This document shows positions 2,362 through 30,560 of a stretch of DNA of 32,000 nucleotides, piece after piece. Made by a program: the position numbers and the translations under genes. The notes under the pieces are model-generated. The model made no database searches and was not told the origin of the DNA. It worked only from the letters and a program-made list of their open reading frames with translations. The stretch comes from an uncultured Syntrophobacter sp. (GTDB lineage Bacteria > Desulfobacterota > Desulfofervidia > Desulfofervidales > DG-60): assembly GCA_964573345.1 (NCBI GenBank), contig CAZNJP010000002.1, forward strand, positions 9,916-41,915, read 5' to 3'. The stretch's first letter is position 1; the number at the start of each line of letters is the position of its first letter.

Positions 2362-2429
2362 TTTATAAGAGGAAAAAGAACAAAAAACTCGTACTATAAA
2401 CCATAGGTTTACGCAGATAAATGTAATTA

Positions 2430-2452: not shown

Positions 2453-2476
2453 TCAGGAAAATTATTAACGCTCAAG

Positions 2477-2514: not shown

Positions 2515-2543
2515 TAAACAATAACACTTTCTCTGTACCCTCC

Positions 2544-2643: not shown

Positions 2644-2742
2644 CAATCCAAGACTTTGACACGGTCCTGGATTACACCATTTTATGCTTGATATTTTTTT
2701 AGAATTATATTAAAAGTTTTGTTAAAATTTTACTATTAAAAA

Positions 2743-5939: not shown

Positions 5940-6011
5940 AAAACACAGGTCAGTGGATCAGTGTGTCAGTTGATCAGTTAACTGACTAACTGATCTGAGG
6001 AGTAAGAAGTT

Positions 6012-6896
6012 ATGATGAAGAGAATTTTATTTGTAACAACCGTCTTAGTTTTATTTTTTATAAGCTTCTGTTGGGCTGAAACTATTTGTCATCCACCTAA
6101 GATATCTGAAAAACCCACTGCAGATGAACTTATGAAGGCATGGTTTGATATTAAGTTCACCAGATATGCAGATGATGTGACATATCCATACATACCTCTG
6201 TTAATGATAGACAAATCAGGCTTTAAAAGAAAAAAGGTAGCTGCAAGAAAAAGGATTGTCTTACATGGAGAAAGGGGACTTGATTATAAGGATGTGATTT
6301 CAATCACATATCCTGAATACACAAAAGGTCTAGCCATACTTACCTGGGCCTATATAGATGTAAACAAAGAAAATGATATCTGGCTCTGGCTCCCTGCCTG
6401 GAAAAAGATAAGGAAGGTCTCCCAGGCAGAAGAGGATGATTCATTTATGGGAAGTGAATTTACAGTAGAAGAAATTACCACCAGAAGATATGGCTATGAA
6501 ACCTATAAACTTATAGGAGAAGGTATATTTCCTGGCTATAAAAGTGGGGGGGATGGGAAGACCTATTGTGAAGGGGTTCCTTGTTACAAAGTGGAGTGCT
6601 ATTCCAAAAAGAAGCCCTGGTATTATGAAAAAAGGATTATCTGGATAGACAAAAATACAGGGGTTTCTGTCTATGAAGAGTATTATGATAAAAAAGGTAA
6701 AAGATTCAAAGAAATCTTCCATTATTATGTCTATCCAGAAAATGGCTGCTACTATCCCATTTTTTATGAGGTCTATAACTTCAGGACAGGCCATAGGGAT
6801 ATTATTGTAATAGGTGGTAAAGCCGAACCTACCTTTAATATGGGTATAAGTGAGAGGTTCTTTACAGAAAAGACATTAGAAAGGCAAGAATGGTAA
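6012..6896 (+). CDS. LolA-like outer-membrane lipoprotein-sorting protein, paralog 2 (tandem duplicate)
   Basis: 294 aa, identical to the 5061..5939 product at most positions by eye. The last 167 nt are nucleotide-identical to paralog 1. Confidence 0.75.
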   Translation: MMKRILFVTTVLVLFFISFCWAETICHPPKISEKPTADELMKAWFDIKFTRYADDVTYPYIPLLMIDKSGFKRKKVAARKRIVLHGERGLDYKDVISITYPEYTKGLAILTWAYIDVNKENDIWLWLPAWKKIRKVSQAEEDDSFMGSEFTVEEITTRRYGYETYKLIGEGIFPGYKSGGDGKTYCEGVPCYKVECYSKKKPWYYEKRIIWIDKNTGVSVYEEYYDKKGKRFKEIFHYYVYPENGCYYPIFYEVYNFRTGHRDIIVIGGKAEPTFNMGISERFFTEKTLERQEW

Positions 6897-7007
6897 AAGG
6901 CATAGGTAAAGGTAAACGATACACGATACAAGATATAAAAATGACAAATGACAAAGCTCAAATGCCAAATGAAGCCCAGAATTCAAAGTAAAAAGTAAAA
7001 GGGCTAG

Positions 7008-7070
7008 GGTTACGAAGCCCGTATCGAAGCCCGTCAGACGTAAAACGATACGGGCATCGTTGCCGTAACC
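7008..7070 (+). repeat. ORF-less hairpin copy of the element that carries the four-helix-bundle gene at 8686-9188
   Basis: The left arm ggttacgaagcccgtatcgaagcccgt (7008-7034) is identical to 8686-8712. The right arm aaaacgatacgggcatcgttgccgtaacc (7042-7070) matches 9160-9188 at 25 of 29 positions. The arms pair as ggttacg/cgtaacc and gcccgtatcg/cgatacgggc. Confidence 0.75.
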
Positions 7071-7139
7071 AATTGACAAGAATTTTGGATTTCAATTGAG
7101 ATTTGGGATTTGAGATTTTTAAAAGGGAGGAGGGAAATT

Positions 7140-8663: not shown

Positions 8664-8685
8664 TCCAAAGGGATAAAAAGGTTAA

Positions 8686-9188
8686 GGTTACGAAGCCCGT
8701 ATCGAAGCCCGTTAAATAGTTGGAGAATTAAAATCGAAAATAGAATAAAACAGAAAAATCCAATAAGGAGTTTTCATGATCTAGAAGTTTATAGAAATAC
8801 TTATGAGGCTTCAATTATAGTTATGACACAGATAGTTCCAAAGTTACCCCAATCTGAAAAGTATGATTTAAAAGATCAATTGGCTCGTTCCTGTAAAGCC
8901 ATACCAAGGCTAATTGCTGAAGGTTATGCTAAGAAGCATCAGAAACACGGGTTTCAGAAATACCTTGACGATGCTATGGGAGAATGCAACGAGACAGTGG
9001 TTAGTCTAAGTCACTGCAGGGATATTTATTCCCAATATGTTGATCCGAAAACATGCGATAAGCTAATAGATGTTTATGATAAATCAGGTAGGCAGCTCTA
9101 TAATTTATCTAAAGCATGGACTGATTTTAAGACTAAGGGGAAACAATTAACGTAACCCGAAAACGACACGGGCATCGTAAACGTAACC
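8686..9188 (+). other. IVS-like structured element: two complementary arms enclosing the four-helix-bundle ORF
   Basis: Left arm 8686-8712 and right arm 9160-9188 are the same arms that sit only 7 nt apart at 7008-7070. Here they are separated by 447 nt containing the ORF. Confidence 0.65.
8823..9155 (+). CDS. Four-helix-bundle protein (23S rRNA intervening-sequence protein family, TIGR02436-like)
   Basis: SEKYDLKDQLARSCKAIPRLIAEGYAKK matches the E.FGLTSQLRRAA.SIP.NIAEGY core of the family. Family similarity continues upstream in frame (SFHDLEVYRNTYEASIIV, 8769-8822) where no ATG/GTG/TTG exists, so the true 5' end is uncertain. Confidence 0.8.
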   Translation: MTQIVPKLPQSEKYDLKDQLARSCKAIPRLIAEGYAKKHQKHGFQKYLDDAMGECNETVVSLSHCRDIYSQYVDPKTCDKLIDVYDKSGRQLYNLSKAWTDFKTKGKQLT

Positions 9189-9199
9189 GATAGACAGAG

Positions 9200-9838: not shown

Positions 9839-9840
9839 AA

Positions 9841-10124
9841 GATTGGTGAATGGGTGAACTTGGTCATTCCCTGTAGCTTGCTAGAGGGTTACCTTTACTC
9901 ATATCTTCCCTCCCCTGGTGGGAGGGATTGAGGGAGGGGGTAAAAAGGGCTTTTTCACCCCCATCCCCCATCAAGGGGGAGGAATTTGTGGGTAAAAAGT
10001 TAGCCCCTTTGGGAGGGGGCTAGGATGAGGGCAAGAAAAGGGTATACCTTATGATACCCTAGAATTTAGGGATAAATTGCCAAAGACTTCTTTAGGAAAG
10101 ATTAAGAAGATGGAGTTGACTTAG
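9841..10124 (+). pseudogene. Decayed relic of a third acyl-CoA (ANL) ligase gene
   Basis: 10044-10124 translates to IPYDTLEFRDKLPKTSLGKIKKMELT-stop. In the aligned 21 residues, 13 are identical to the C-terminus of the 12454..13920 ligase (LVEFKKDLPKTPLGKVKKLEL). 9853-9900 retains GELGHSL and, after a frame change, EGYLY (gagggttaccttta, identical to 11437-11450) corresponding to GDLGYLDEEGYLY. It contains stops and frameshifts, has no 5' part, and its middle is replaced by G/C-tract hairpins. Confidence 0.6.
9908..10021. repeat. Cluster of four G/C-tract hairpins
   Basis: ccctccc-ctggt-gggaggg (9908-9926). gggggtaaaaagggctttttcaccccc (9936-9962). ccccc-atcaa-ggggg (9965-9979). agcccc-tttggga-ggggct (10002-10021). 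Confidence 0.65.
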
Positions 10125-10263
10125 ATAAGAATAGTTAAATAGTTGAACCAAAAATTGGAGAATCGTTGAATGGTTAAATCGTAGAATTATGGAACCGTCA
10201 AACCGAATCAACGAATTAACTAATTAACGAGTTTACTAATTTGGATAATTAGGGGGTCATAAA

Positions 10264-11757
10264 ATGGATGTCTATAAATTATTTTCTCAAACGGCCAAGC
10301 AGCAACCAGAAAAGCCAGCCCTTGTTTTTGAAGGGAAGGTAACCAGTTTTTCTCAGGCCTTGGAAAAGGTAAACCAAATAGGACATACCTTACAGGCACT
10401 TGGCCTAAAACAAGGAGAAAAACTAGCCATCTGGCTGCCAAATTGCCCTGAGTTCATAATGGCCTATTTGGCTGCCTTTGGCCTTGGGGCAACAGTTATT
10501 CCAATAGATGCCATGGCTGCAAAAGAAGAGGTGATCGGGATTCTTAATCATGGGGAGGCTTCTATTCTTATAACCACATTCAATGAAGCATTTGAGATTA
10601 AAAATTACATACCAAGCCTCAAACATATCATTACTAATTTAGATGAATTAGCCACTTCTGACAAAACACCCCTGCCCCGTGGAGTAAGGTTTACTACTCA
10701 ACGGGGACTGCCCGCTATTATAGACGAAGAAGATACAGCACTGATCATTTACACATCTGGCACTACCGGGCAGCAAAAAGGGGTAATGCTTACTTACAGA
10801 AATCTGGACTCGCCTATAAAGACCTTTGCGTATTTTGGTTTAAAATATGACTGCGTACTCTGTGCAGTTCCCTTTTCCCATGAAGCAGGTTCGCTGCATA
10901 CCCTATTTCAGGCATCTATGGGCAGTACTCTGGTCATTATGGAAAGATTTGCCCCTGGCAAATTCTTAAGATATATAGAGAAATATCAAGCCGACCTCGT
11001 ATTTGCCCCTCCAGCCATCCTTGAGGCATTATTAAAAACCAGCGAAATAGAGACAATATCTCTTAAATCACTAAAATATGTTGCACCTTTTGGCGCACCC
11101 TGTCATCCTAGAATCTTTCAGGCATTTATACAAAAATTCCCCCATATAAATGTTATAACAGCTTATGGTCTGACCGAATCCACTGCTCCAAATGTTGTTT
11201 TATCTCCGGATACACCTACCTTTAAGAGGGTCAAAAAGGGCATCCTGGGTAAGCCTGCCCCCTGGGTAGAGATAAAAATTGTAGATGATAAAGGAAATGA
11301 GCTTCCTTCTGGTAGCATAGGGGAAATACTACTTAAGGGCTGGTTTGTTATGAAGGGGTATTATAAAGAACCAGAGCTTACAAGAGAGGTCCTAAGGGAT
11401 GGCTGGCTCTATACTGGGGATTTGGGTTATCTGGATGAGGAGGGTTACCTTTATATTACAGGACGTAAGAAAGACGTGATTATTACTGGCGGCCTTAGTG
11501 TTTATGCAAATGAAGTAGAATTTGTTATCTCTGAACATCCAAAGGTAAAAGAGGTAGCAGTAATAAGCACACCAGATAAACTAAGGGGAGAATTGGTCAA
11601 AGCTGTAATTGCCTTAAAGGAAAAAGGCACAGCTCAAGAAATCACTAATCATTGCCGTAAAAGGCTTGCTAGTTACAAAATCCCCAGGGTCATAGAGTTT
11701 AGGGAAAGTTTGCCTAAAACAAGTGCTGGTAAGATTAAAAAGGCGGACTTGATTTGA
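10264..11757 (+). CDS. AMP-dependent acyl-CoA/acyl-carrier ligase (ANL superfamily), paralog 1
   Basis: ANL core motifs IIYTSGTTGQQKG (A3), AYGLTEST (A5), YTGDLG (A7), GRKKDVIITGG (A8), PKTSAGKIKK (A10). Confidence 0.9.
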   Translation: MDVYKLFSQTAKQQPEKPALVFEGKVTSFSQALEKVNQIGHTLQALGLKQGEKLAIWLPNCPEFIMAYLAAFGLGATVIPIDAMAAKEEVIGILNHGEASILITTFNEAFEIKNYIPSLKHIITNLDELATSDKTPLPRGVRFTTQRGLPAIIDEEDTALIIYTSGTTGQQKGVMLTYRNLDSPIKTFAYFGLKYDCVLCAVPFSHEAGSLHTLFQASMGSTLVIMERFAPGKFLRYIEKYQADLVFAPPAILEALLKTSEIETISLKSLKYVAPFGAPCHPRIFQAFIQKFPHINVITAYGLTESTAPNVVLSPDTPTFKRVKKGILGKPAPWVEIKIVDDKGNELPSGSIGEILLKGWFVMKGYYKEPELTREVLRDGWLYTGDLGYLDEEGYLYITGRKKDVIITGGLSVYANEVEFVISEHPKVKEVAVISTPDKLRGELVKAVIALKEKGTAQEITNHCRKRLASYKIPRVIEFRESLPKTSAGKIKKADLI

Positions 11758-12453: not shown

Positions 12454-13920
12454 ATGGATGTTTATAAAACATTTTTAGACGCAGCAAATAAGCAGCCGAA
12501 CAAAACAGCCCTTATCCATAAGGATAGGGAGGTCAAATTTTCTGAGGCAGCAAAGGATGTAAATAGACTTGCAAATGCATTTAAAGAAATGGGGATGAGA
12601 AAGGGTGAAAAATTGGCTATTTTTTTGTCAAATTCTATAGAATATGTTTATTCTATGATAGCCTCCCTTGGTCTTGGTGTTACAGTAATCCCATTAGATA
12701 TGTCTCTTAAAATGGAAGAATTAAAAAATATCCTATCACATGCTGAAGCAGATTATTTGATTACAAAGGAAAATTTAGATTTTGATTTACCCCATTTAAA
12801 AGGGATAATCTATGATATAGAAGATTTAATTAATAAATCAGAAAAATCGCCTATAGATGAGAAAATAAGTGAAGAAGATATAGCGTTCATCTTTTATACC
12901 TCAGGCACTACAGGGAGGTCAAAGGCGGTTCCTTTAACTTACAAACAATTAGATTCTCCTATAGCTGTCTATGATTATAATAAAATTTTAGAAGATTGCT
13001 TAGTGGTAGTTTGTTATGTACCACTTTCCCATACAGGTGGGCTTTCTTATCTTTTAATGTTTGTAAAAATAGGAAGCACTTTAATACTGGGTGAAAGGTT
13101 TAGCCCATCTCGTTTTTTAGATGATATTGAAACTTATAAAGTCACTGCTACTTGGGTTCCTCCTTCTATTTTAGAAGCTATTTTAAGGTCAAGGGAAATA
13201 GACAAATTTTCACTTAAATCATTAAAAATAATTATTTATTTCGGAGCACCTGCTAGCCCTGAATTTATTAAAAAAGTTAAAGAAAAATTCGGCTGTCCTT
13301 GGGTTACTGGTTTAGGATTGACTGAAACCGCCGGGCCATTTGTAGTTTATTGCTCAAAAAATGCCCCAGAAAAGCAATTTAAAAAAGGCATTATGGGAAA
13401 AGTTCCCCCTTGGGTAAAAGTAAAGACTATAGATGAAATGGAAAAAGAACTTCCACCTGGGGAAATAGGCGAAATATTAGTTAAAGGCTATTTTGTTATG
13501 TCTGGCTATTATAAAGAGCCAGAGCTTACAAGAGAGGTTCTAAGGGATGGCTGGCTTTATACAGGTGATTTAGGCTATTTAGACGAGGAAGGCTATCTTT
13601 ATATTACAGGTAGAAAAAAGGATGTAATCATCACAGGTGGCCTGAGTGTCTATGCTAATGAAGTAGAGTTTGTTATCTCCCAACACCAAAAGGTGAAGGA
13701 AGTGGCAGTAATAGGTACACCTGATAAGCTAAGGGGAGAGGTGGTTAAAGCGGTGGTGGTTTCTAAAAATGGCACAAGATTATTTCCTAGAGAGATTATT
13801 TCATTTTGCAAAAAGAGGCTTCCGGGCTATAAAGTACCAAAACTTGTTGAATTTAAAAAGGACTTGCCCAAAACCCCCTTAGGAAAGGTTAAGAAATTGG
13901 AGCTTGAGCGAATTAAGTAA
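12454..13920 (+). CDS. AMP-dependent acyl-CoA/acyl-carrier ligase (ANL superfamily), paralog 2
   Basis: FIFYTSGTTGRSKA (A3), GLGLTETA (A5), YTGDLG (A7), GRKKDVIITGG (A8), PKTPLGKVKK (A10). Confidence 0.9.
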   Translation: MDVYKTFLDAANKQPNKTALIHKDREVKFSEAAKDVNRLANAFKEMGMRKGEKLAIFLSNSIEYVYSMIASLGLGVTVIPLDMSLKMEELKNILSHAEADYLITKENLDFDLPHLKGIIYDIEDLINKSEKSPIDEKISEEDIAFIFYTSGTTGRSKAVPLTYKQLDSPIAVYDYNKILEDCLVVVCYVPLSHTGGLSYLLMFVKIGSTLILGERFSPSRFLDDIETYKVTATWVPPSILEAILRSREIDKFSLKSLKIIIYFGAPASPEFIKKVKEKFGCPWVTGLGLTETAGPFVVYCSKNAPEKQFKKGIMGKVPPWVKVKTIDEMEKELPPGEIGEILVKGYFVMSGYYKEPELTREVLRDGWLYTGDLGYLDEEGYLYITGRKKDVIITGGLSVYANEVEFVISQHQKVKEVAVIGTPDKLRGEVVKAVVVSKNGTRLFPREIISFCKKRLPGYKVPKLVEFKKDLPKTPLGKVKKLELERIK

Positions 13921-14077: not shown

Positions 14078-15301
14078 ATGGTTTCTAAAGCGAAGATTGC
14101 TATTGTAGGTGGGGGGATTGCTGGTTTGTCTTGTGCTTACTTTCTGAAAAAGCAAGGTCTGGATGCAGTTATCTATGAAAGAAAAAGAGAAGTAGGAGGT
14201 AGGTTTTCTACCTTGAAAATCGATGGAGTTTATATTAATCGGGCCGCTTTGATGTTTTCTAAAAAGCTTAATCCCTGTTTTACTTCCCTTATTCATGAAT
14301 TAGAAATTCCTCACAGGGAGATAGATAAGTCAAAGTTTGCAGTGCAGATTGGGGATAAAATTATTCCTTTAAACAGGCAAGGACTTCTTGAAAGTGGATT
14401 GTTCAATTTAGAAGAAATCAAGTTGTGGGGGAAATTACAGGAGTTAGCACAATCGCTCAAATTTGATTATGGTGAGCCTGATGAACGATTACTTAAGTGG
14501 CATGAGATGTCCCTTTATGATTTTTGTAAAAAAGAGATGAAATTTACCGATAATATGATAAATTACCTGGCTCAACTTTATGCTAGCTTTCAGTATGTGG
14601 AACCACATGAGCTTGCCGCAGATAAAGGACTATTTTCTATTTCCTACTCTATAACACCTACCTTTACGCCTATAAAAGGTATGGGAGAAGTAGCATTGGA
14701 GTTAAAGAAAAGACTAGGGGATGAAAACCAAATAAATACCCATGTAACTGAGGTGCATTATGAGCCAGGAAAAGGCTTTATGTTAAAAGTGAAAAGAGAA
14801 GATAGATCTCCTACATTTGAAGGGCCTTATGAGTATTGTGTTTTTGCTACTGGCGGGAGGAGTGTAAAAAATATTATGCCAGAGGTGGATTTTGAGGTCC
14901 AGGCAGCTAAGACCAGGGGGTTTATCATAGAGGCCATCTGCCCCCAGTATCGTCCATATGAGCTAATAATCTTTCCTAAAGTAGACAATAAGCATGGTGT
15001 CCATGGTGGTGAAATGCAACATCTGCCTGATGGTCGTTCTATTTGCGCTATCCTTCTCTATCGCAGTGATGCAGATTTAGGGGCAGTTTTTAAGAAATAT
15101 AAAATCATTGAGCGCCTTGGTTGGTCACCTGCCCTTGGGGTAATGCCACCAGGGGGAAAGATTGTAGATGTTGCTACTAATGTAAAAAATGCTTTTGTGG
15201 TAGGTGACTTCTTTCGTTTTCCAAATCTTGAATCTTGTGTTTATACAGCCAAGAAGGTTGCTTCTATCATTGCCAAAGGCAAATTAGAGAAGAAAAAATG
15301 A
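14078..15301 (+). CDS. FAD/NAD(P)-binding oxidoreductase (amine-oxidase / phytoene-desaturase-like fold)
   Basis: N-terminal dinucleotide fold KIAIVGGGIAGLSCAYFLKKQGLDAVIYERKREVGGR. C-terminal FVVGDFF FAD-anchoring motif. Confidence 0.8.
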   Translation: MVSKAKIAIVGGGIAGLSCAYFLKKQGLDAVIYERKREVGGRFSTLKIDGVYINRAALMFSKKLNPCFTSLIHELEIPHREIDKSKFAVQIGDKIIPLNRQGLLESGLFNLEEIKLWGKLQELAQSLKFDYGEPDERLLKWHEMSLYDFCKKEMKFTDNMINYLAQLYASFQYVEPHELAADKGLFSISYSITPTFTPIKGMGEVALELKKRLGDENQINTHVTEVHYEPGKGFMLKVKREDRSPTFEGPYEYCVFATGGRSVKNIMPEVDFEVQAAKTRGFIIEAICPQYRPYELIIFPKVDNKHGVHGGEMQHLPDGRSICAILLYRSDADLGAVFKKYKIIERLGWSPALGVMPPGGKIVDVATNVKNAFVVGDFFRFPNLESCVYTAKKVASIIAKGKLEKKK

Positions 15302-16023
15302 AGATTTTAGGGATATGTGGGACAAATAAAAGAAAAAATAAAAAATCTGCCAGTGATTACTTTCTTAGAAAGGCCCTGGAAGCCACTGAAGAACTGGGGG
15401 CAAAGACAGAATTAATTAGACTTATAAATTATCGTATAAAACCATGTTTGGCATGTAATTTCTGCATTTGCGGCAAGTTATGTCCTTTGCTCGAAGATCC
15501 AAAAGATGATGCAAAAGAAATCTTTGAAAAGATAGATGAGGCAGAAGGTATAATCTTTTCCTTCCCTGTTTACGCATATCAGACACCTGCCGTTGTCATT
15601 AATTTACTTCAGAGGGTAAGGCCTTTTCATGAGCTTGAAAGGGCAAAGGCAACAGGCTTAGAAATTAAGGCCGTAAAAAGCAATCCCTTTTCTGGAAAAC
15701 CTATAGGAAATTTGGCAGTAGCGGCCGCTATTGGGTTAGAAGGGGCTTTATTTGGACCGCTCCATATCTTGAAGGCATTGGGGGCAACACCAGTTGCCTG
15801 TGCAGGTATTTCTCTTTTGGACCCAGAGATAAAAAATATTTATAGCATAAACGGTAAATTCTGTGTTCCTAATAAAGAAATAAAGGCATTTTTTGATAGG
15901 GATTTTCCAAGTTATGAAGAAAATGAATGTGCTATTGATATGGCGCGCTCAGTAGGGAAGTGGGTCTATATGGCTTACAACTCTGAGGTATTTCAGAGGA
16001 TAAAATATCGCACCAAACTTTAG
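15298..16023 (+). CDS. Iron-sulfur flavoprotein / NADPH-dependent FMN reductase-like protein
   Basis: ORF 15235..16023. Start placed at ATG 15298, overlapping the upstream stop (ATGA). Flavodoxin-like MKILGICGTNKRK...GIIFSFPVYAYQTP. The compact Cys cluster CLACNFCICGKLC contains the CX2CX2CX5C motif of Isf-type 4Fe-4S flavoproteins. Confidence 0.7.
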   Translation: MKILGICGTNKRKNKKSASDYFLRKALEATEELGAKTELIRLINYRIKPCLACNFCICGKLCPLLEDPKDDAKEIFEKIDEAEGIIFSFPVYAYQTPAVVINLLQRVRPFHELERAKATGLEIKAVKSNPFSGKPIGNLAVAAAIGLEGALFGPLHILKALGATPVACAGISLLDPEIKNIYSINGKFCVPNKEIKAFFDRDFPSYEENECAIDMARSVGKWVYMAYNSEVFQRIKYRTKL

Positions 16024-16025
16024 TT

Positions 16026-16094
16026 ACCCCCACACCAAAAATTGGTGTGGGGGACCTTTAACAATGCCCCACCCGGAAGGGTGGGGTGGTTTAC
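16026..16094 (+). repeat. 69-bp inverted repeat, left copy (two hairpins)
   Basis: acccccacaccaaaaattggtgtgggggacctttaacaatgccccacccggaagggtggggtggtttac. It is the reverse complement of 21199-21267 with a single mismatch. It contains an 11-bp-stem hairpin (cccccacacca/tggtgtggggg) and an 8-bp stem with a GGAA loop. Confidence 0.9.
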
Positions 16095-16125
16095 TATTAA
16101 GATTTTACTATACATGGAGGCTTAA

Positions 16126-17592
16126 ATGAAGACACTATTTGTTATGCCCAGTGTAGGTGCCTGGGCCTCACACGGAATACACAAGGCACCCAACCAGCTT
16201 TATGCCCAGCTTGGTGCATATTTAAGGAGCAAGAACATTTGTGATGTAAAAGTTTTGGATGCCCGTGCCTTTGATATGTCTACTGAAAAGATGCTAGAGA
16301 AAGTCAAGGAACATGGTCCTGATATAGTGATATTAGGAGATATGGTTCATTCTTACGGCGGATTTGCTGTGATGTGGTATTTTAATGAAACAGCTCGCTT
16401 GATAAAGGAAGTTTGCCCAAAGATAAAGATTATTGTTGGTGGTCTTTGGTATTCTGGATATTATAAACAAACCCTTGAGCAAAATCCATGGATAGACTTT
16501 GTCTATGTAGGTGAAGCAGAGCTTACAGTAGAAGAGTTGCTCCTTGCCCTAGATAGAGGTCGCAAAGATTTAGAAAATATTCCTGGGCTTGCCTTGAGAA
16601 AAGATGGTCAAGTTGTAATTGGGCCTCATCGAGAATTGATTAAAGACTTAGACAGCCTTCCTTTGCCTGCCTATAATTTGTTTCCTATGGATAGGTATGT
16701 AGGGCATACCTATTGGAAACCATTTGTAGAAATCATTACCTCCCGTGGTTGTCCTAATGCCTGTTCTTTTTGTTATGAATGGAGCCAATTTGACCCCCGT
16801 AGCCCAAAGGACTTTATAAGCTGGAGGGCCAAGTCTGCAAAACAGGTAGTGGATGAACTGGAGTTATTAGAAAAGAAATACGGTGTGAAGGTAGTGGTTA
16901 TCCAGGATGATACCTACAATGTGAATATAAATAGATTAAAGGAAACATGTGATGAAATCTTAAAAAGACACCTTTCTATAAAATGGGTGATGTTGGGTAT
17001 AGCCCGGGATTGGGTAAGGCAAAAAGAGATTATTCCTTTAATGAAAAAGGCTGGCATGTTTATGGGTGTATTGGGAATAGAGGTAGCAAGTGATGAAGAA
17101 CTGAAAAAGATTGGCAAGGGTATAACAATTTCTCAGGTCAAAGAAACTATTGATATTTTGAGGGAAAATGACGTTGCTACTGTAGGTACCCTTCTGGTGG
17201 GATTTGAGGATGACAATGAGGCAATAATTAAAAATAGGTGTGAATTTGCTAATAAAATTGACCCAGATATTATCTGGATAGGCTTTGTTACTCCCCCGCC
17301 TGGTTCACCTATCTGGAGGAGTGCCGTTAGAAATGGTCGGGTTGATCCCAACCATATAGACCTAAAACTTTGGGACTTCCAGCACCCAGTTATGCCTACA
17401 AAAAATTTATCAATAGAAAATATAGGGCGTCTAGCTGCATGGGGAATGAAGAAGTTTTATAGCAATCCTAAAAGGATTCAACGCATCATGAATAGCAGTT
17501 ATGACTCACTTGCAAAGCTGTGTTTTAAGGACCAATTGGATAATTTCATGCGTTTTGAAAAAGCTGCAGTTAAAGGAGAAATTTTGGTTTAG
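16126..17592 (+). CDS. B12-binding-domain radical SAM protein, paralog 1
   Basis: Rossmann-like N-terminal domain (DIVILGD...IIVGG) followed by the SRGCPNACSFC CX3CX2C radical SAM motif. The size and layout are those of class B (cobalamin-dependent) radical SAM enzymes. Confidence 0.8.
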   Translation: MKTLFVMPSVGAWASHGIHKAPNQLYAQLGAYLRSKNICDVKVLDARAFDMSTEKMLEKVKEHGPDIVILGDMVHSYGGFAVMWYFNETARLIKEVCPKIKIIVGGLWYSGYYKQTLEQNPWIDFVYVGEAELTVEELLLALDRGRKDLENIPGLALRKDGQVVIGPHRELIKDLDSLPLPAYNLFPMDRYVGHTYWKPFVEIITSRGCPNACSFCYEWSQFDPRSPKDFISWRAKSAKQVVDELELLEKKYGVKVVVIQDDTYNVNINRLKETCDEILKRHLSIKWVMLGIARDWVRQKEIIPLMKKAGMFMGVLGIEVASDEELKKIGKGITISQVKETIDILRENDVATVGTLLVGFEDDNEAIIKNRCEFANKIDPDIIWIGFVTPPPGSPIWRSAVRNGRVDPNHIDLKLWDFQHPVMPTKNLSIENIGRLAAWGMKKFYSNPKRIQRIMNSSYDSLAKLCFKDQLDNFMRFEKAAVKGEILV

Positions 17593-17601
17593 GAGGAAGC
17601 A

Positions 17602-19467
17602 GTGCTCCCACAGAAGATTGCCTATTTAAACTTAGACACCACGGATGTTGAAATTAAAGAAATCCCCAAAAAAATAACCAAAAAATTTCTAGGTGGACGC
17701 GGGATAAATATGTATTTGCTTTATAATCATGTCAAACCTGAAACAGACCCCTTGTCTTCAGAAAATCCACTCATTATCGGACCAGGGCTTTTAACAGGAT
17801 TAAAGGGCATAAGTGCTAGTAGATGCAATATTTCTGGAAAATCTCCTGAAACAGGGCTTTTGGGGGATTCAAATATAGGTGGTTATTTTGGGGCATTCAT
17901 GAAAAGGACAGGCATTGACTATTTATTTATTACTGGTGCCTCAAAAAGGCCCGTTTATATCTATTTAGACGATGAGGGAATCAGTATAGAAGATGCCAAG
18001 GATTTATGGGGAAAATGTACTACAGAAACTAATACTATCTTAAAAAAACGCTATGGCCCATCAAGTCAGTCTATTTCTATTGGAATAGCAGGGGAGAATT
18101 TAGTACGCTTTGCCTGCATTATTAACAGGAAGAAGAACGCTGCTGGCAGGACTGGCATGGGTTGCCTTATGGGGGCCAAAAAGATAAAGGCCATTGTAGC
18201 AAATGGTAAAAAGGTCTTAAAGCCAAAAGATGAACCCAGATTTAATGAATTAATAAAAGACCTTCATCAAAAATTAGATAAAGAACCTTTAGTTAAAGTA
18301 CTCAGCGAATTTGGTTCTGTCCATCTTTTTAAGCTTATTAATGAGCAGATTGGTATGGGAAGGGTCTACAATGGACTTTCTATGACATTTCCAGAAAACA
18401 AAGATATTTCACCTGATATATTGAAAGAAAAATACTATACAGGAAAGGCAGGTTGCTTTTCCTGCCCTGTTGCCTGCCAGCATAGATACAAAGTTAATGA
18501 GATAAAAAGTGAAGGGCCAGAATATACCATTCTTGCTAGTTTTGGTCCTGTTGTAGGAATAAAAAGATTAGAAACAGTTCTTTATATAAACGACCTAATA
18601 AATAGCTATGGCCTGGATGCTAGTTCCACATCAAACCTTATTGCCTGGGCCATCGAACTATTTAAGAAAGGTCTAATAGATGAAGAGATAACCAATGGAC
18701 TGAAACTCGATTGGGGAGATGAAGAAGCAATTATAGAGTTGATTCACCAAATTGCCCATAGGAAAAGCTTTGGTGACATTTTGGCTAATGGGGCAAAAGA
18801 GGCAGTAAGGCAATTGGGTGAAAAAACAAGCAAATATATTATTTGGACAAAGTATCTACCCCAATCAGACCCAGTGGATTTAAGGTACCTTCCAGCTTAT
18901 GCCTTAGGTAATTCAGTGGCTTCAAGGGGTTCTGACCATTTAAGAAGTCGACCTACCTGGGAGGCCTATGGCCTTTCTGAGGAACAGTTAAAGGCCATTT
19001 ATGGTGGACATGTTTCTCCAAATCCCTGTAGCTATGAAGGAAAAGGAAGAGTTATCTGGTGGTGGGAAACTTATCTTTCCCTTTTTGATGCCTTGGGCCT
19101 TTGTAAGCTTATTGCCTTCCATTGTCGGCCTGGCTTGCTCAGTTTTGAATTTTTCTCAGAGTTGATTCGCTATGCCACTGATCTTGATCTAACACCTCAA
19201 GAAATCTTTGAGGTAGGGGAAAGAATCGTAAACCTAGAGAGGATGTTTATTGTAAAGAAGGAAATAAAAAGGCAGGATGACTTTCCACCTCAAAGGTACT
19301 TTGAACCACTAGTTTACCAGGAAGGCCTAACCCCTGAGAAAAAAGATTTAAAGCTGGATAAGGCAGGCTTTCATCAAATGCTTGATGAATACTATCAACT
19401 TCGTGGATGGGATAAAGAGGGTAGGCCTTTAGATGAAACAAAAGTGCGTTTGGGTTTAAGCCAATGA
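17602..19467 (+). CDS. Aldehyde:ferredoxin oxidoreductase family (tungsto/molybdopterin) enzyme
   Basis: GTG start after AGGAGG. AOR N-terminal domain (KIAYLNLDT...FLGGRG). 4Fe-4S ligands GCFSCPVACQH plus DALGLCKL. Full AOR length (621 aa). Confidence 0.9.
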   Translation: MLPQKIAYLNLDTTDVEIKEIPKKITKKFLGGRGINMYLLYNHVKPETDPLSSENPLIIGPGLLTGLKGISASRCNISGKSPETGLLGDSNIGGYFGAFMKRTGIDYLFITGASKRPVYIYLDDEGISIEDAKDLWGKCTTETNTILKKRYGPSSQSISIGIAGENLVRFACIINRKKNAAGRTGMGCLMGAKKIKAIVANGKKVLKPKDEPRFNELIKDLHQKLDKEPLVKVLSEFGSVHLFKLINEQIGMGRVYNGLSMTFPENKDISPDILKEKYYTGKAGCFSCPVACQHRYKVNEIKSEGPEYTILASFGPVVGIKRLETVLYINDLINSYGLDASSTSNLIAWAIELFKKGLIDEEITNGLKLDWGDEEAIIELIHQIAHRKSFGDILANGAKEAVRQLGEKTSKYIIWTKYLPQSDPVDLRYLPAYALGNSVASRGSDHLRSRPTWEAYGLSEEQLKAIYGGHVSPNPCSYEGKGRVIWWWETYLSLFDALGLCKLIAFHCRPGLLSFEFFSELIRYATDLDLTPQEIFEVGERIVNLERMFIVKKEIKRQDDFPPQRYFEPLVYQEGLTPEKKDLKLDKAGFHQMLDEYYQLRGWDKEGRPLDETKVRLGLSQ

Positions 19468-20537
19468 AGGTAGCAATAATTGGGGCAGGGGCAATAGGTA
19501 GTTTAGTAGCTGGTTATCTTAGCAAAGAAGGTATGGATGTCACTTTAGTTGGTAAAAGGCGGGATGTTTTAGCTATCAAGGAAAATGGCCTTATCATAGA
19601 AGGAGTAAGAGGGAGAATAGTTATTCCAGTTAATGTTACGAATAAATTAGGAAATGCGGATTTTATCATCTTGGCCGTTAAGACACAAGACATTGTTTCG
19701 GCCTTAAACGAGAATATCCAGGTCTTAAAAGATGCCCCTATCCTTACGGTGCAGAATGGGGTTAGGGCCGAAGAGATTCTTTTGAAGTTTGTTCCCAAGG
19801 AAAGGATTATTGGCAGCATTATCATGTTTGGAGCAACATACCTTGAACCAGGAAGAATTCTACACAATTTTGAAGGGGATTGGATAATTGGAAAAGTATT
19901 TGTTCAGAATGATGAAAAGGTTGAAACAATAGTAAATCTTTTAAACAAGGCATTTCCTGTCCACACAACAGAAGAAGTAAGGGAAATGAAATGGCTAAAG
20001 CTCTTTTTAAACCTAAATAATTGCCTTCCTGCCTTAGTAGGGAAAAGTATGCAAGAGACATTTTCTGATTTGGAGACCTGTAAGTTAAGTATCCGCCTCT
20101 TGTATGAGGCATTGATGGTGGTTGATAAGGCAGAAATTAAATTAAAATCCCTACCAGATTTTCCTGTAGAAAGGGTTCGGGCATTGACAGAGATGTCGCT
20201 AGAAGAAGCAAGCAAGATATTTTCAAAAATAATGACCAACTTGAGTGAGACGCCTCTTTATGGCTCTATCCTTCAAAGTATAAAGAGAAAAAGACCATCA
20301 GAAATTGACTATTTTAACGGAGAGATAGTCTCTTTAGGAAAAAAGCTAGGGTTGTCTGCACCTCTAAATAAAAAGGTAGTTGAGATGGTGCACGAAGTGG
20401 AGAGGAAAGGTGAGTTTTTTAGGCCAAAAGATATTTTAAATAAATTTAACTGTTTACCACAGAGAACGCAGAGACCACAAAGACGTCCCTCTGCGAGCTC
20501 TGTGAGCTCTGTGGTGAACGATCACAAACAAATTTAA
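19464..20537 (+). CDS. 2-dehydropantoate 2-reductase (PanE/ApbA) family oxidoreductase with repeat-derived C-terminal tail
   Basis: MKVAIIGAGAIGSLVAGYL dinucleotide fold, ILAVKTQD, SILQSIKRKRPSEIDYFNGEIV family motif. ATGA overlap with the AOR stop. The last ~25 codons (LPQRTQRPQRRPSASSVSSVVNDHKQI) run through the palindromic repeat at 20454-20518. Confidence 0.8.
   Translation: MKVAIIGAGAIGSLVAGYLSKEGMDVTLVGKRRDVLAIKENGLIIEGVRGRIVIPVNVTNKLGNADFIILAVKTQDIVSALNENIQVLKDAPILTVQNGVRAEEILLKFVPKERIIGSIIMFGATYLEPGRILHNFEGDWIIGKVFVQNDEKVETIVNLLNKAFPVHTTEEVREMKWLKLFLNLNNCLPALVGKSMQETFSDLETCKLSIRLLYEALMVVDKAEIKLKSLPDFPVERVRALTEMSLEEASKIFSKIMTNLSETPLYGSILQSIKRKRPSEIDYFNGEIVSLGKKLGLSAPLNKKVVEMVHEVERKGEFFRPKDILNKFNCLPQRTQRPQRRPSASSVSSVVNDHKQI
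20454..20518. repeat. Palindromic pair of family A (ttcaccRcagag) units
   Basis: The forward arm is ttaccacagagaacgcagaga. The reverse complement of tctgcgagctctgtgagctctgtggtgaa is ttcaccacagagctcacagagctcgcaga. The two arms can form a long imperfect hairpin. Confidence 0.65.
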
Positions 20538-20548
20538 GGGGGTTAAAG

Positions 20549-21124
20549 ATGGAATTAAAGTTTCCTAAGCTTCTGGTCAGTATAAGCAAGATTAGAGAAA
20601 AATGCTATCAGGGATATAAAGAAGGGGATAAATTTATCTTTCAAGACTTTACTAAAACCCCTCAAGGCTTTTGTCAAGGGGCCGCCACCGTGCTTTTCCC
20701 CTGTCTTTATGCCTTAACCTTTGGGGCAGAGTTTCCCTTTGAGGAAAATCCCCGTTCTATCCATACCAGTTGTCCTGATGGAGGGAGGGTAGAGTTTTTT
20801 ACCCAAGTGCTGACTGAAGCAGGGGAAATAGAAATCGGAAAAAAACAGGAACAAATAGGGCCAAAACCAAAGAAGATGATTCTCAGTGTAGAGGAAGTAA
20901 GAGGAAGGTGTTTTTATGGCTATAAGGCAGGAGATACCTTTGAAATAACCGGACTTAGCACTCCAAAGAATTTTTGCGGTGGTGCCTATAATGCCCTGTT
21001 CCCTGTGTTTTTTGCCTTAAATTTTGGGGCAAAATATCCATTTACTGAAGATGGAGGAACAATTTCTCGTGTGACCTGCCCAGATGGGGCAAACATTAGG
21101 TTTAAAGTAAGGAGAATGGAATAA
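20549..21124 (+). CDS. Tandem-domain TIGR04076-like protein (unknown function)
   Basis: Two ~90-aa halves share the pattern C..GYK.GD.F......P..FC.GA...LFP...AL.FGA..PF........CPDG..(V/I).F, which I recognise as the TIGR04076 small Cys-rich family. Confidence 0.55.
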   Translation: MELKFPKLLVSISKIREKCYQGYKEGDKFIFQDFTKTPQGFCQGAATVLFPCLYALTFGAEFPFEENPRSIHTSCPDGGRVEFFTQVLTEAGEIEIGKKQEQIGPKPKKMILSVEEVRGRCFYGYKAGDTFEITGLSTPKNFCGGAYNALFPVFFALNFGAKYPFTEDGGTISRVTCPDGANIRFKVRRME

Positions 21125-21140
21125 TAAAAAATGGCAATAA

Positions 21141-21161
21141 TTCACCGCAAAGAGCGCTGAG
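21141..21161 (+). repeat. Copy of family A REP-like unit
   Basis: aataattcaccgcaaagagcgctgag; compare 2430-2452. Confidence 0.55.
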
Positions 21162-21198
21162 TTAAGTTATTTTTTGTTTTCCGCTGAGAAGGCGGAAA

Positions 21199-21267
21199 GT
21201 AAACCACCCCACCCTTCCGGGTAGGGCATTGTTAAAGGTCCCCCACACCAATTTTTGGTGTGGGGGT
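21199..21267 (-). repeat. 69-bp inverted repeat, right copy
   Basis: gtaaaccaccccacccttccgggtagggcattgttaaaggtcccccacaccaatttttggtgtgggggt. This is the reverse complement of 16026-16094 except for one base (gggtaggg versus gggtgggg). Confidence 0.9.
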
Positions 21268-21282: not shown

Positions 21283-22545
21283 ATGAGGAAAAGGGTGGTA
21301 GTTACAGGTATAGGGGTGCTTTCCCCAAATGGTATTGGAAAAGAGGCATTTTGGGAAGGGATGATTTCAGGCAAATCAGGGGTAAGGCGTGTAACGGATT
21401 TTGATGTTTCTCAATTTCATTCCCAGATTGCTGCAGAAGTAAAAGATTTTGACCCATTTAGCTTTGGCTTGACGGCTGAGGAAGTAGAAAGGATGGATCG
21501 TTATGTCCAGTTTGCCGTTGTAGGAACAGAGATGGCAATAGAGGATGCAAAAATTCTTTTAGATAAAGAAGAAAAGGAGAGAGTGGGTGTTTGTTTGGCC
21601 AATGCCATCTGTGGCACAAGGTATATGGAAGAGGAATTTGTTAGGGTAACAAATGGTGGAAAAGAACCTATAGACCCGAAAAAAGTAAGACCATACCTTT
21701 ATGATGCCTCTATGTTTAATACCCCTGCGAGTGAAATATCGGCACGCTATCGATCAAAGGGCATTTGCACCACAGTTTCTACTGGTTGCACCGCAGGCAC
21801 AGATGCTGTGGGCTTTGCTTATGAAGTCATTCAAAATGGAGAGGCAGATATTATGATTACTGGTGCCTCTGAAGCGCCCCTTTGTGCCATTACCTTTGCT
21901 GCATTTGATGTCTTAAAGGTAATATCGGCCAGAAATGATGAGCCAGAAAGGGCATCAAGGCCCTTTGATAAAGAAAGGGATGGTTTTGTGCTCTCTGAGG
22001 GTTGCGGCATCTTAATCTTAGAAGAATTGGATCATGCCTTAAGGCGAGGGGCTCATATCTATTGTGAAATCACAGGTTTTGGCACCTGCTGTAATGCCTA
22101 TCATATGACAGATTTACCATCAGATGGTGATAGTATGGTTGTTTCTATAAATTTTGCCTTAAAAGATGCAGAATTGTCTCCTGAGGACATAGGTTATGTC
22201 AATGCCCATGGTAGTTCTACTAAACAAAATGATATATTTGAAACCAATGCCTATAAAACAGTCTTTGGCAAAAAAGCCTATGAGACCCCTATAAGTTCTC
22301 TTAAATCCATGATTGGCCATCCTTTGGCTGCGGCCAACAGCATAGAACTTATTGCCAGTGCCCTTATTTTTGAAAGGGACATTTTACCACCCACCATAAA
22401 TCAAGAGGCGCCTGACCCTGTATGCGATTTGGACTACATTGCTAATAAGGCCCGAGAAAAACGCATCAATCACATACTTAAAACCAGCAGTGGCTTTGCT
22501 GGTGTCCATTCCTCAATGGTATTGAGCAGACGGAATTCAAAATGA
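21283..22545 (+). CDS. Beta-ketoacyl synthase, KS-alpha type (active Cys-His-His)
   Basis: ORF 21229..22545. Its first 18 codons lie inside the inverted repeat, so the start is placed at ATG 21283 (MRKRVVVTGIG). Active-site VSTGCTAG (Cys codon tgc 21787-21789), AYHMT and VNAHGSST histidines, SLKSMIGH. Confidence 0.9.
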   Translation: MRKRVVVTGIGVLSPNGIGKEAFWEGMISGKSGVRRVTDFDVSQFHSQIAAEVKDFDPFSFGLTAEEVERMDRYVQFAVVGTEMAIEDAKILLDKEEKERVGVCLANAICGTRYMEEEFVRVTNGGKEPIDPKKVRPYLYDASMFNTPASEISARYRSKGICTTVSTGCTAGTDAVGFAYEVIQNGEADIMITGASEAPLCAITFAAFDVLKVISARNDEPERASRPFDKERDGFVLSEGCGILILEELDHALRRGAHIYCEITGFGTCCNAYHMTDLPSDGDSMVVSINFALKDAELSPEDIGYVNAHGSSTKQNDIFETNAYKTVFGKKAYETPISSLKSMIGHPLAAANSIELIASALIFERDILPPTINQEAPDPVCDLDYIANKAREKRINHILKTSSGFAGVHSSMVLSRRNSK

Positions 22546-27104: not shown

Positions 27105-27208
27105 ATCGAAAATTGGTTAGATCGTTAAATTTAAGAAGAAGCACTTAACGATGAACGGTTTTACTATTTGACGAATTGACGAATTAACTATTTAACAAGT
27201 ATTTTCAG

Positions 27209-30510: not shown

Positions 30511-30560
30511 GTCAGTGAGTCAATTGATTAACTGACAAACTAAAATAGAGGGGAAGAAAA

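What the first reader, a model, noticed from the sequence alone, without database searches (positions are those of the whole stretch)
16026..21267. 69-bp near-perfect inverted repeats bracket a four-gene redox/radical cassette inserted between the flavoprotein and the PKS core
Seen: 16026-16094 and 21199-21267 are reverse complements with one mismatch in 69 nt. The left copy starts 3 nt after the flavoprotein stop. The right copy ends 15 nt before the KS-alpha start. The repeats enclose exactly B12-rSAM, AOR, PanE-like reductase and tandem TIGR04076, plus a family A repeat. Each copy folds into an 11-bp hairpin plus an 8-bp stem with a GGAA loop. The single mismatch gives a U-G wobble in the minus-strand reading of the right copy but a C-A mismatch in the plus-strand reading. 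Inference: there are three options. It could be a mobile insertion cassette or MITE-bracketed module that brought these genes into the locus. It could be an invertible segment. Or these could be two independent copies of a dispersed REP-like stabiliser/insulator. No recombinase or transposase is in the window.
Basis: partly seen in the sequence, partly recalled or inferred. Interest (0 to 1): 0.7.

Follow-up and report, generated by a model that had tools for sequence, protein, structure and literature searches.

The report
Dispersed hairpin repeat, not a cassette
The two 70-base inverted repeats are real, but they are two separate copies of a small hairpin-rich repeat scattered through this Desulfofervidus-like genome, and the four genes between them are an old, conserved part of the polyketide cluster rather than an imported or invertible cassette.

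Summary
Window 16026-16095 and 21198-21267 are reverse complements, 70 nt with 1 mismatch, and none is expected by chance. Each folds into a 12-bp hairpin plus an 8-9-bp GGAA-loop hairpin. The headline interpretation does not hold. Four orthologous loci (about 80% nt identity) have the same order, flavoprotein genes, then B12-rSAM, AOR, PanE-like, TIGR04076, then KS-alpha. None carries the repeat, and TIGR04076 and KS-alpha are 2-3 nt apart. More distant clusters also keep PanE-like (with B12-rSAM or AOR) directly upstream of KS-alpha. So the four genes are ancestral, and the repeats are later insertions into two spacers. Six further copies, 97-100% identical, lie in one JGI metagenome at unrelated housekeeping loci, in both orientations. 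Most are a 123-nt long form with 11-12-nt inverted termini. The window copies are its 3' 70 nt. The 42-kb source contig has no recombinase or transposase, and three assemblies show the same orientation. This is a new family of a known kind (REP/BIME- or MITE-like). Its mobilising enzyme is unresolved. One odd point remains: the 27-nt hairpin matches, with one loop base different, a perfect palindrome found in at least 25 Patescibacteria MAGs.

The parts
16026..16095 (+). Left copy of the repeat (short form, 70 nt), in unit orientation hairpin 1 then hairpin 2. It sits in the 102-nt spacer after the FMN-reductase-like gene.
   Evidence: It is 100% identical to positions 53-123 of the 123-nt long form found in JGI contigs.
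16027..16053 (+). Hairpin 1: CCCCCACACCAA-AAA-TTGGTGTGGGGG. This is the module that matches the Patescibacteria palindrome with one loop base different.
16067..16086 (+). Hairpin 2: CCCCACCC-GGAA-GGGTGGGG. With its tail GTTTACTATT it is flagged as terminator-like on the + strand.
21198..21267 (-). Right copy of the repeat (short form), in the opposite orientation, with one substitution (21223). It occupies part of a 158-nt spacer that is only 2-3 nt long in orthologues.
21125..21197 (.). Other repeat material next to the right copy: a family-A-like motif (21136-21161) and the hairpin TTCCGC-TGAGAAG-GCGGAA. It is also absent from orthologues.
   Evidence: (D10)
20448..20537 (.). An insertion of about 88 nt of 'family A' palindromic sequence at the 3' end of the PanE-like gene. 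It replaces the last codons with a 28-aa tail. It is an independent small-repeat insertion in the same gene block.
15298..16023 (+). FMN-reductase-like flavoprotein gene. Its stop codon lies 2-3 nt before the left copy.
16126..21124 (+). The four enclosed genes: B12-rSAM (16126-17592), AOR (17602-19467), PanE-like (19464-20537) and tandem TIGR04076 (20549-21124). They are ancestral members of the cluster.
21283..22545 (+). KS-alpha gene. In orthologues it starts 2-3 nt after the TIGR04076 stop, with the Shine-Dalgarno sequence inside the upstream gene. Here the two are separated by 158 nt.

Best explanation
The two arms are independent insertions of one small, non-coding, hairpin-rich dispersed repeat of a Desulfofervidus-like bacterium (Thermodesulfobacteriota).

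The family has two forms. The 123-nt long form is TTTAC-CACCCCACCC...[hairpin A]...[hairpin 1]...[hairpin 2]-TGGTTTAC-T, with 11-12-nt inverted termini. The 70-nt short form is its 3' part, and both window copies are of this kind.

Each copy landed in an intergenic spacer of an already complete type II PKS cluster. One is at the flavoprotein|rSAM boundary, which is also an insertion hot spot in relatives. The other, together with a second kind of repeat, is in the formerly 2-3-nt TIGR04076|KS-alpha junction. Their opposite orientation, and the fact that they bracket four genes, is coincidental.

The following is inferred, not shown. Copies spread in trans through an enzyme encoded elsewhere. 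It could be a hairpin-recognising HUH (Y1/Y2) transposase inserting next to TTAC, or a DDE transposase using the inverted termini with a TTA duplication. In the mRNA each copy forms very stable stem-loops. These can act as barriers to 3' exonucleases or as partial terminators. The right copy has also uncoupled KS-alpha translation from the upstream gene.
For: SHOWN.
- The repeat is real and reproduced in independent assemblies.
- Six further copies, 97-100% identical, lie in JGI metagenome Ga0190286 on six different contigs.
- Their neighbours are unrelated housekeeping genes: mnmE|rsmG, downstream of rny, upstream of ymdB-tyrS, and next to a multihaem cytochrome.
- They occur in both orientations relative to flanking genes (6 minus, 2 plus).
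- The boundaries are sharp and shared. Three short copies start at the same base, and four long copies are 99-100% identical over 123 nt.
- The rny-linked copy also occurs in ENA sample ERZ27248455, the sample that holds the window's contig. Three assemblies break in or at the element, as expected for a multi-copy repeat.
- The tetranucleotide signature of the JGI contigs matches the window (r = 0.96-0.97) as well as the two window halves match each other (0.96).
- Orthologous loci L119, L120, L125 and L126 have identical gene order and no trace of the element. The TIGR04076-to-KS-alpha spacer is 2-3 nt there against 158 nt here.
- Distant clusters keep PanE-like (with AOR in L121, with B12-rSAM in L123/L124) directly upstream of KS-alpha.
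- The same gene block has a third small-repeat insertion at 20448-20537. The window's other spacers hold further repeat families. Small repeats therefore pepper this lineage's cluster.
- No transposase or recombinase is present in the 42 kb seen.
Against: Only 8-9 copies are known, not dozens, because the source genome could not be scanned as a whole. It is not among the GTDB representatives.

It is not proven that the JGI contigs come from the same genome as the window. The two share no other repeat family.

No empty site in a conspecific strain was found, so mobility, exact ends and any target duplication are inferred from borders only. No cognate transposase was identified.

The RNA-level effects rest on folding predictions alone. 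The copies are too alike for covariation analysis.
Confidence: 0.85

Rival explanations
1. The repeats are the ends of a composite mobile cassette that delivered the four redox/radical genes between the flavoprotein gene and the PKS core.
For: A 70-nt near-perfect inverted pair brackets exactly four genes. In relatives the flavoprotein|rSAM junction is variable.
Against: Four orthologous loci carry the same four genes in the same place without the repeat, with tight 2-3-nt coupling to KS-alpha. PanE-like, with B12-rSAM or AOR, directly upstream of KS-alpha is conserved as far as Omnitrophota-type clusters. Composition shows no step at the arms. No transposase is present. The same element occurs singly at unrelated loci.
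Confidence: 0.03
2. The pair defines an invertible DNA segment. The 10-bp arms plus 7-bp asymmetric core of hairpin 1 resemble a tyrosine-recombinase core site, and switching would turn the four genes on or off.
For: The sites are in inverted orientation. Hairpin 1 has the arm-spacer-arm layout of a recombinase core site. Seventy base pairs of identity would also permit rare RecA-driven inversion (general knowledge).
Against: No recombinase lies in the 42-kb contig. The window and two independent assemblies show the same orientation. Inversion would put four conserved, co-oriented biosynthetic genes in antisense. Single copies at housekeeping loci would scramble the chromosome if they recombined.
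Confidence: 0.03
3. Whatever their origin, the two copies now work together at RNA level. In one polycistronic transcript they could pair into a 70-bp duplex that loops out the four-gene segment and creates an RNase III site. Alternatively they act as paired insulators or stabilisers.
For: All genes lie on one strand. The predicted inter-copy duplex is -150 kcal/mol, against -78 kcal/mol for the two local folds. Hairpin 2 of the left copy is terminator-like on the sense strand.
Against: Local hairpins form first during transcription, and translation would disrupt 5-kb-range pairing. Relatives do without any such element. Other copies occur singly. There are no expression data.
Confidence: 0.08
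4. The repeat is an assembly or chimera artefact.
For: Contig L002 stops 17 nt before the right copy, and its first 128 nt do not match the window.
Against: Both copies and the mismatch are identical in the window and in L001, which comes from another assembly. The same element is present in JGI, ENA and Logan assemblies.
Confidence: 0.01

Closest known systems
REP / BIME elements of enterobacteria and pseudomonads (repetitive extragenic palindromes, mobilised by RAYT/TnpA-REP HUH enzymes)
   Same: Short GC-rich palindromic units confined to intergenic spacers, often right after stop codons inside operons. They occur in both orientations and are combined in mosaics with other motifs. Hairpin A and hairpin 2 share a head-plus-palindrome layout (AATG-CCCCnnnn-GGAA-nnnnGGGG). 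The expected effects are mRNA 3'-end stabilisation or attenuation (general knowledge of REPs).
   Different: There is no sequence similarity. No RAYT was found. The copy number is unknown. The unit has fixed ends and a defined 123/70-nt length with inverted termini, which is more transposon-like than classical REPs.
MITEs (e.g. Correia/NEMIS of Neisseria, RPE of Rickettsia, Nezha of cyanobacteria)
   Same: Small and non-coding, with near-identical copies, sharp ends and 11-12-nt terminal inverted repeats in the long form. TTA lies on both sides. One insertion separates co-translated genes, and in this window a different small repeat extends an ORF.
   Different: A target-site duplication cannot be told apart from conserved element ends. 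No parent IS with the same termini was seen. The 70-nt short form has only imperfect (8/10) termini.
IS200/IS605-derived PATEs and IS608-type TTAC-specific insertion
   Same: Subterminal hairpins of similar sequence lie near both ends (hairpin A and hairpin 2). TTAC directly abuts the left border in long copies and in 2 of 3 short copies. The right end also finishes with TTAC. IS608 inserts 3' of TTAC (my own knowledge, not tested).
   Different: The two window copies lie in opposite orientations within one replication arm, where GC skew is uniformly positive. This is unlike the strand bias of IS200/IS605. No Y1 transposase was seen. An IS91-type Y2 transposase about 6 kb from one copy shares no sequence with it.
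Double-hairpin elements of fungal mitochondrial DNA
   Same: A tiny unit made of two adjacent hairpins, found in spacers. The related Patescibacteria palindrome also occurs in an rRNA variable region (L056).
   Different: They belong to a different domain of life and share no sequence. This is an analogy only, drawn from my own knowledge.

Membership tests
MITE / non-autonomous TIR element | Small, non-coding, with multiple near-identical dispersed copies | tested here: met
   8-9 copies of 70 or 123 nt, 97-100% identical, at distinct loci
MITE / non-autonomous TIR element | Terminal inverted repeats | tested here: met
   Long form: ACCACCCCACCC ... GGGTGGGGTGGT, 12/12. Short form: only 8/10.
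MITE / non-autonomous TIR element | Target-site duplication flanking each copy | tested here: inconclusive
   TTA lies on both sides in the long copies and in 2 of 3 short copies (the third has TCA). The neighbouring bases are also invariant, and no empty site is available.
MITE / non-autonomous TIR element | Autonomous partner IS with the same ends | not testable with these tools
REP/BIME with RAYT | Imperfect palindromes with a conserved head motif, restricted to extragenic space | tested here: met
   All copies are intergenic. AATG precedes hairpin A and hairpin 2 (sequence).
REP/BIME with RAYT | RAYT gene flanked by the REPs; hundreds of copies per genome | not testable with these tools
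   No whole genome is available. There are 2 copies in 42 kb of source contig.
Composite transposon / mobile gene cassette | Cargo present only where the flanking repeats are present, and absent from the site in relatives | tested here: not met
   The four genes are present at the same site without repeats in L119, L120, L125 and L126.
Composite transposon / mobile gene cassette | Transposase within or beside the flanked segment | tested here: not met
   Pfam annotation of all genes in the window and the contig extension.
Site-specific invertible segment | Adjacent invertase or recombinase | tested here: not met
   None in the 42 kb seen.
Site-specific invertible segment | Both orientations present in the population | tested here: inconclusive
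   Three assemblies show one orientation. Reads could not be examined.
Intrinsic terminator | GC-rich hairpin followed by a U-tract on the transcribed strand | tested here: inconclusive
   Hairpin 2 plus GTTTACTATT passes the simple scan for the left copy only. The right copy passes on the antisense strand only.
Known RNA family (Rfam) | Match at or near the gathering score | tested here: not met
   No hit at gathering threshold. The best permissive hits have E of 0.1 or more to unrelated families.

The most novel reading that the evidence does not exclude
Hairpin 1 would not be merely one lineage's repeat. It would be a member of a cross-phylum palindrome family. CCCCCACACCAAAWTTTGGTGTGGGGG is a perfect 27-nt palindrome and occurs 57 times among the 109 fetched loci, spread over at least 25 Patescibacteria MAGs (Saccharibacteria, Falkow-, Nealson-, Giovannoni-, Harrisonbacteria and others). 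It has symmetric variants (TAAWTTA) and sits inside lineage-specific larger repeats. In one case it lies in a 23S rRNA variable region. The window's version differs by one loop base. This would imply that a bare hairpin module moves between phyla, or is recognised by a conserved, undescribed hairpin-specific enzyme or host factor.
Probability: 0.25. Interest if true: 0.5.

Novelty: new member of a known kind. Interest (0 to 1): 0.25.

Why it matters
The main value is as a correction. An eye-catching inverted-repeat bracket around four radical/redox genes does not mark a mobile or switchable module. Those genes belong to the conserved core of an anaerobe type II PKS cluster that is shared, in varying form, by Desulfofervidus-like bacteria, Dehalococcoidales/Syntrophaceae-labelled MAGs and Omnitrophota.

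For anyone working on this cluster, the repeats matter in practice. They break short-read assemblies. One has separated KS-alpha from its translationally coupled upstream gene. A different repeat has rewritten the C-terminus of the PanE-like reductase.

The element is an apparently undescribed small-repeat family of a thermophilic syntrophic sulfate-reducer lineage. Its resemblance to a widespread Patescibacteria palindrome is an unexplained lead.

Tried and rejected
- Rfam, at gathering and at permissive thresholds, on the window and on a long-form copy: nothing meaningful.
- Full-text literature search for the palindrome sequence: only unrelated eukaryotic or aptamer hits.
- BLAST of the 123-nt element against the phage and plasmid collections: no match.
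- IMG/VR scan for the hairpin stem: 24 hits, all of the Pseudomonas-type terminator with GC-rich loops, unrelated.
- Clustering of ORFs within 2.5 kb of the Patescibacteria palindromes, to find a recurrent transposase: no family recurs in more than 5 loci.
- Looking for the element next to the IS91-type Y2 transposase/integrase pair in L153: no shared sequence.
- Covariation analysis among copies: impossible, because copies differ at 0-2 positions.
- Attempt to fetch a more than 90% identical JGI contig (P0121) as a possible empty site: not on record.
- Extra 10 kb of the source contig: no further copy.
- Other window repeat families searched for in the JGI contigs, to prove same-genome origin: none shared. 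Only composition supports a common clade.
Full report

Yes. The repeat finder lists arms 16026-16095 and 21198-21267 as a 70-nt inverted pair, 99% complementary, 5102 nt apart. It is by far the longest inverted repeat in the window. Each hairpin motif occurs only at these two places, and shuffles give 0.00-0.01 expected matches. The single mismatch is 21223 (A) against 16070 (C).

The left copy begins 2-3 nt after the TAG stop (16021-16023) of the FMN-reductase-like gene. The right copy ends 15 nt before the KS-alpha ATG at 21283.

Folding gives a 12-bp hairpin, CCCCCACACCAA/AAA/TTGGTGTGGGGG, and an 8-9-bp hairpin, CCCCACCC/GGAA/GGGTGGGG. The left copy on the + strand folds at -43.9 kcal/mol (z = -4.8). 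The right copy gives -34.4 on the + strand and -42.2 on the - strand.

The enclosed genes are as described: B12-binding radical SAM, aldehyde:ferredoxin oxidoreductase, PanE/ApbA-like reductase and a 191-aa protein with two TIGR04076 matches. An independent ENA assembly (L001, sample ERZ27248455) is 99.98% identical over 13.8 kb and contains both copies and the mismatch. A second assembly (L002) contains the left copy and the interior in the same orientation.

**2. Are the four genes a cassette?**

No. I searched with KS-alpha and fetched the genomic context of its homologues. L119 is a 2.5-Mb contig, LR991655.1. It is 79-80% identical in nucleotides to the window across the block and has GC 38.6%.

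Its gene order is amine oxidase, FMN-reductase, B12-rSAM, AOR, PanE-like, 190-aa protein, KS-alpha, KS-beta, ACP, cyclase and so on. A 65-nt AT-rich spacer follows the flavoprotein gene. Only 3 nt (TAA AGT ATG) separate the 190-aa gene from KS-alpha. No part of the repeat is present there, nor in L120, L125 or L126.

Those three loci (KS-alpha 85-86% identical) have the same four genes directly upstream of KS-alpha, with 2-nt spacers. More distant clusters keep the association:
- L121: AOR, PanE-like, a 205-aa protein, then KS-alpha.
- L123/L124 (KS-alpha 68% identical, its protein named as Omnitrophota by NCBI): aldolase, aldehyde dehydrogenase, B12-rSAM, two small proteins, PanE-like, then KS-alpha.

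The four genes are therefore ancestral cluster members. The repeats are additions specific to the window's lineage.

The left junction is variable in relatives. L120 and L125 carry an opposite-strand ParE-like toxin pair there, and L120 and L126 carry an uncharacterised 150-aa gene. It behaves as an operon boundary that tolerates insertions.

The right junction was a translationally coupled one. The AAGGAG Shine-Dalgarno sequence lies inside the upstream gene in both genomes. In the window it is now 158 nt from the KS-alpha start.

**3. What is the repeat?**

A scan of JGI metagenomes for the two-hairpin pattern gave six hits. All are in one metagenome (Ga0190286, contigs L112-L117), and all have the same 44-nt spacing. 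They are 97-100% identical to the window unit and have sharp, shared ends.

Four copies, plus one cut by a contig end, extend to the left into a 123-nt long form:

TTTACCACCCCACCCAGAATG-CCCCGTGC GGAA GCACGGGG-ATGAAGGGGTATA-[hairpin 1]-ACCTTTAACAATG-CCCCACCC GGAA GGGTGGGG-TGGTTTACT

Its ends, ACCACCCCACCC and GGGTGGGGTGGT, are perfect 12-nt inverted repeats. Hairpin A and hairpin 2 are paralogous modules, each AATG + CCCCnnnn-GGAA-nnnnGGGG. The two window copies and L112 are a 70-nt short form equal to long-form positions 53/54-123. All three start at the same base, so the short form is a unit in its own right and not a set of random truncations.

The contexts are unrelated housekeeping spacers:
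- between mnmE and rsmG (L112; the mnmE stop codon lies in the element's last bases);
- 27 nt after rny (L113);
- upstream of ymdB-tyrS (L117);
- after an ATPase gene next to a multihaem cytochrome gene (L115).

Relative to flanking genes, the orientation is minus in 6 copies and plus in 2. No other copy is paired around a gene block.

The rny copy is also present in ENA sample ERZ27248455, the sample that yielded the window's contig. Three assemblies of that locus all terminate in or at the element. The tetranucleotide signature of the JGI contigs correlates with the window at 0.96-0.97. This equals the correlation between the two window halves. It compares with 0.6 and 0.05 for the distant loci L121 and L123.

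Source-given protein names place the lineage near Candidatus Desulfofervidus (Thermodesulfobacteriota). The type II PKS cluster of Ca. D. auxilii is already known from genome mining (PMC6638757). The extra 10 kb of the source contig holds no further copy, which gives 2 copies in 42 kb.

**4. How it most likely works**

Shown: this is a dispersed, near-identical, intergenic, hairpin-rich element with defined ends. It is absent from orthologous sites in related species.

Inferred: it is a non-autonomous mobile repeat supplied with an enzyme in trans. The borders allow two readings that I cannot separate without an empty site.
- (a) A DDE-type MITE with 11-nt inverted termini (CCACCCCACCC/GGGTGGGGTGG) and a TTA duplication. 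TTA lies on both sides of the long copies and of 2 of 3 short copies. The window's right copy has TCA.
- (b) A hairpin-dependent HUH mechanism (REP/RAYT, IS200/IS605 or IS91-like) inserting next to TTAC. TTAC abuts the left border of both forms, although the adjoining element sequence differs between them, and the right end also finishes with TTAC followed by T in all 8 copies.

Against (b), the two window copies face opposite ways in a region of uniformly positive GC skew.

For expression, predictions only:
- The left copy places two strong stem-loops 2-3 nt after a stop codon. Its hairpin 2 with the GTTTACTATT tail passes a simple terminator scan on the sense strand.
- The right copy passes that scan only on the antisense strand, but it buries the G-rich stretch just upstream of KS-alpha in hairpin 1.
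- A 70-bp duplex between the two copies in one transcript is thermodynamically favoured (-150 against -78 kcal/mol). It is kinetically unlikely and remains speculative.

**5. Other small repeats in the same block**

Compared with orthologues, the window has an insertion of about 88 nt of palindromic 'family A' sequence at 20448-20537. It replaces the last two codons of the PanE-like gene with a 28-aa tail. The 158-nt right spacer is composite: family-A-like material plus a hairpin (21125-21197), followed by the 70-nt unit. Other spacers of the window carry further repeat families. This lineage's copy of the cluster is peppered with small repeats, which makes a chance bracket unremarkable.

**6. 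Comparison with known systems**

Functionally and architecturally the element is closest to REP/BIME mosaics and to MITEs. PATE/IS608-like behaviour is a possibility, and fungal mitochondrial double-hairpin elements are a loose analogy. It matches no Rfam family. It has no relative in the phage or plasmid collections. It was not found by a sequence search of the literature.

It fails the defining tests for a composite transposon, because the cargo is present without the repeats and there is no transposase. It also lacks the recombinase expected for an invertible segment, and no second orientation was seen. I file it as a new member of a known kind.

**7. An unexplained side observation**

The GTDB-representative scan for the hairpin-1 stem returned 109 loci. 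About 30 are unrelated GC-loop terminators of Pseudomonas, Streptomyces and others.

Fifty-seven instances have the loop AAAWTTT, which makes a perfect 27-nt palindrome, CCCCCACACCAAAWTTTGGTGTGGGGG. Six have the symmetric variant TAAWTTA, and about eight have one-base variants. They come from at least 25 Patescibacteria MAGs of many lineages. One Falkowbacteria MAG holds 16 or more copies, embedded in its own larger multi-hairpin repeats. One copy lies next to 23S rRNA sequence in what looks like a variable-helix position (L056). Many copies show the asymmetric flanks CTTG...TGAA.

The window's hairpin 1 (loop AAAAATT) is a one-base variant of this palindrome. Similarity beyond hairpin 1 is only a few adjacent bases (27-36 nt matched). 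No recurrent neighbouring protein was found. I cannot say whether this reflects transfer of a hairpin module, a shared recognising factor, or convergence on a stable C/G-rich stem. It is the most novel reading left open.

**8. Verdict**

The cassette and inversion interpretations are rejected. The dispersed-repeat interpretation is supported. Interest is low to moderate.

Noticed in passing
window 6995-7077, 8674-8712, 9160-9196, with gene 8823-9155: The four-helix-bundle ('23S rRNA intervening sequence protein', PF05635) gene sits between the two split arms of a palindromic repeat. An intact, gene-less hairpin version of that repeat lies 1.6 kb upstream at 6995-7077 (-34.6 kcal/mol). This is a genuine single gene bracketed by inverted repeats in the same window.
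   Followed up: partly
window 20448-20537: An insertion of about 88 nt of palindromic 'family A' sequence (TTTACCACAGAGAACGCAGAG...CTCTGTGAGCTCTGTGGTGAAC), absent from orthologues. It replaces the last two codons of the PanE-like gene with a 28-aa tail.
   Followed up: yes
loci L003-L111 (GTDB genomes), e.g. L007, L011, L014, L020 (Falkowbacteria MFFV01), L019/L024 (Saccharibacteria), L056: A perfect 27-nt palindrome, CCCCCACACCAAAWTTTGGTGTGGGGG, recurs in at least 25 Patescibacteria MAGs. It often lies inside lineage-specific larger repeats, often has CTTG...TGAA flanks, and in one case lies next to 23S rRNA sequence. No explanation was found, and no paper was found that mentions it.
   Followed up: partly
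window 2362-2742, 5940-6011, 9839-10263, 27105-27208, 30511-30560; L151 18647-18797: Several other intergenic repeat families are present. One is a GC-rich palindrome (CCCGCCCGCCTCGCAAGCGAGCTTGCTCGCGTTGCGGGCAGGTGGCGGG) that recurs inverted about 5 kb beyond the window's end, on the same contig. Others are GTCAGT/GATCAGT heptamer-like runs and ACGAATTAAC runs. None is present in the orthologous loci checked.
   Followed up: partly
window 1-32000 and loci L119-L126: The whole cluster is conserved in varying subsets across Desulfofervidus-like genomes, Dehalococcoidales/Syntrophaceae-labelled MAGs and Omnitrophota. It comprises aldolase II, aldehyde dehydrogenase, MMPL/LolA-like export genes, two AMP-ligases, flavoproteins, B12-rSAM, AOR, PanE-like, TIGR04076, KS-alpha/beta, ACP, cyclases, SDR, amidohydrolase, and a glycyl-radical enzyme with its activase. 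Its product is unknown to me.
   Followed up: partly
loci L120 2628-4702, L125 519-1015, L126 3635-4807: In relatives the flavoprotein|rSAM junction holds opposite-strand insertions: a ParE-like toxin pair and uncharacterised small genes. This is the same junction that holds the left repeat copy in the window.
   Followed up: no
L002 1-128; L002 end; L153/L154/L155 ends: Contig L002 begins with 128 nt that do not match the window inside the flavoprotein gene, which may be a chimera or a variant. It ends 17 nt before the right copy. Three assemblies of the rny locus all end in or at the long-form element. The repeat fragments short-read assemblies.
   Followed up: partly
L153 2628-4775: An IS91-family Y2 (HUH) transposase gene, paired with a phage-integrase-family gene, lies about 6 kb from the rny-linked copy of the element. 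It shows no sequence similarity to the element.
   Followed up: partly
window 5061-5939 / 6012-6896 and 10264-11757 / 12454-13920: There are tandem gene duplicates: two LolA-like/DUF1329 genes (87% nt identity over the repeated stretches) and two AMP-ligase genes (78%).
   Followed up: no
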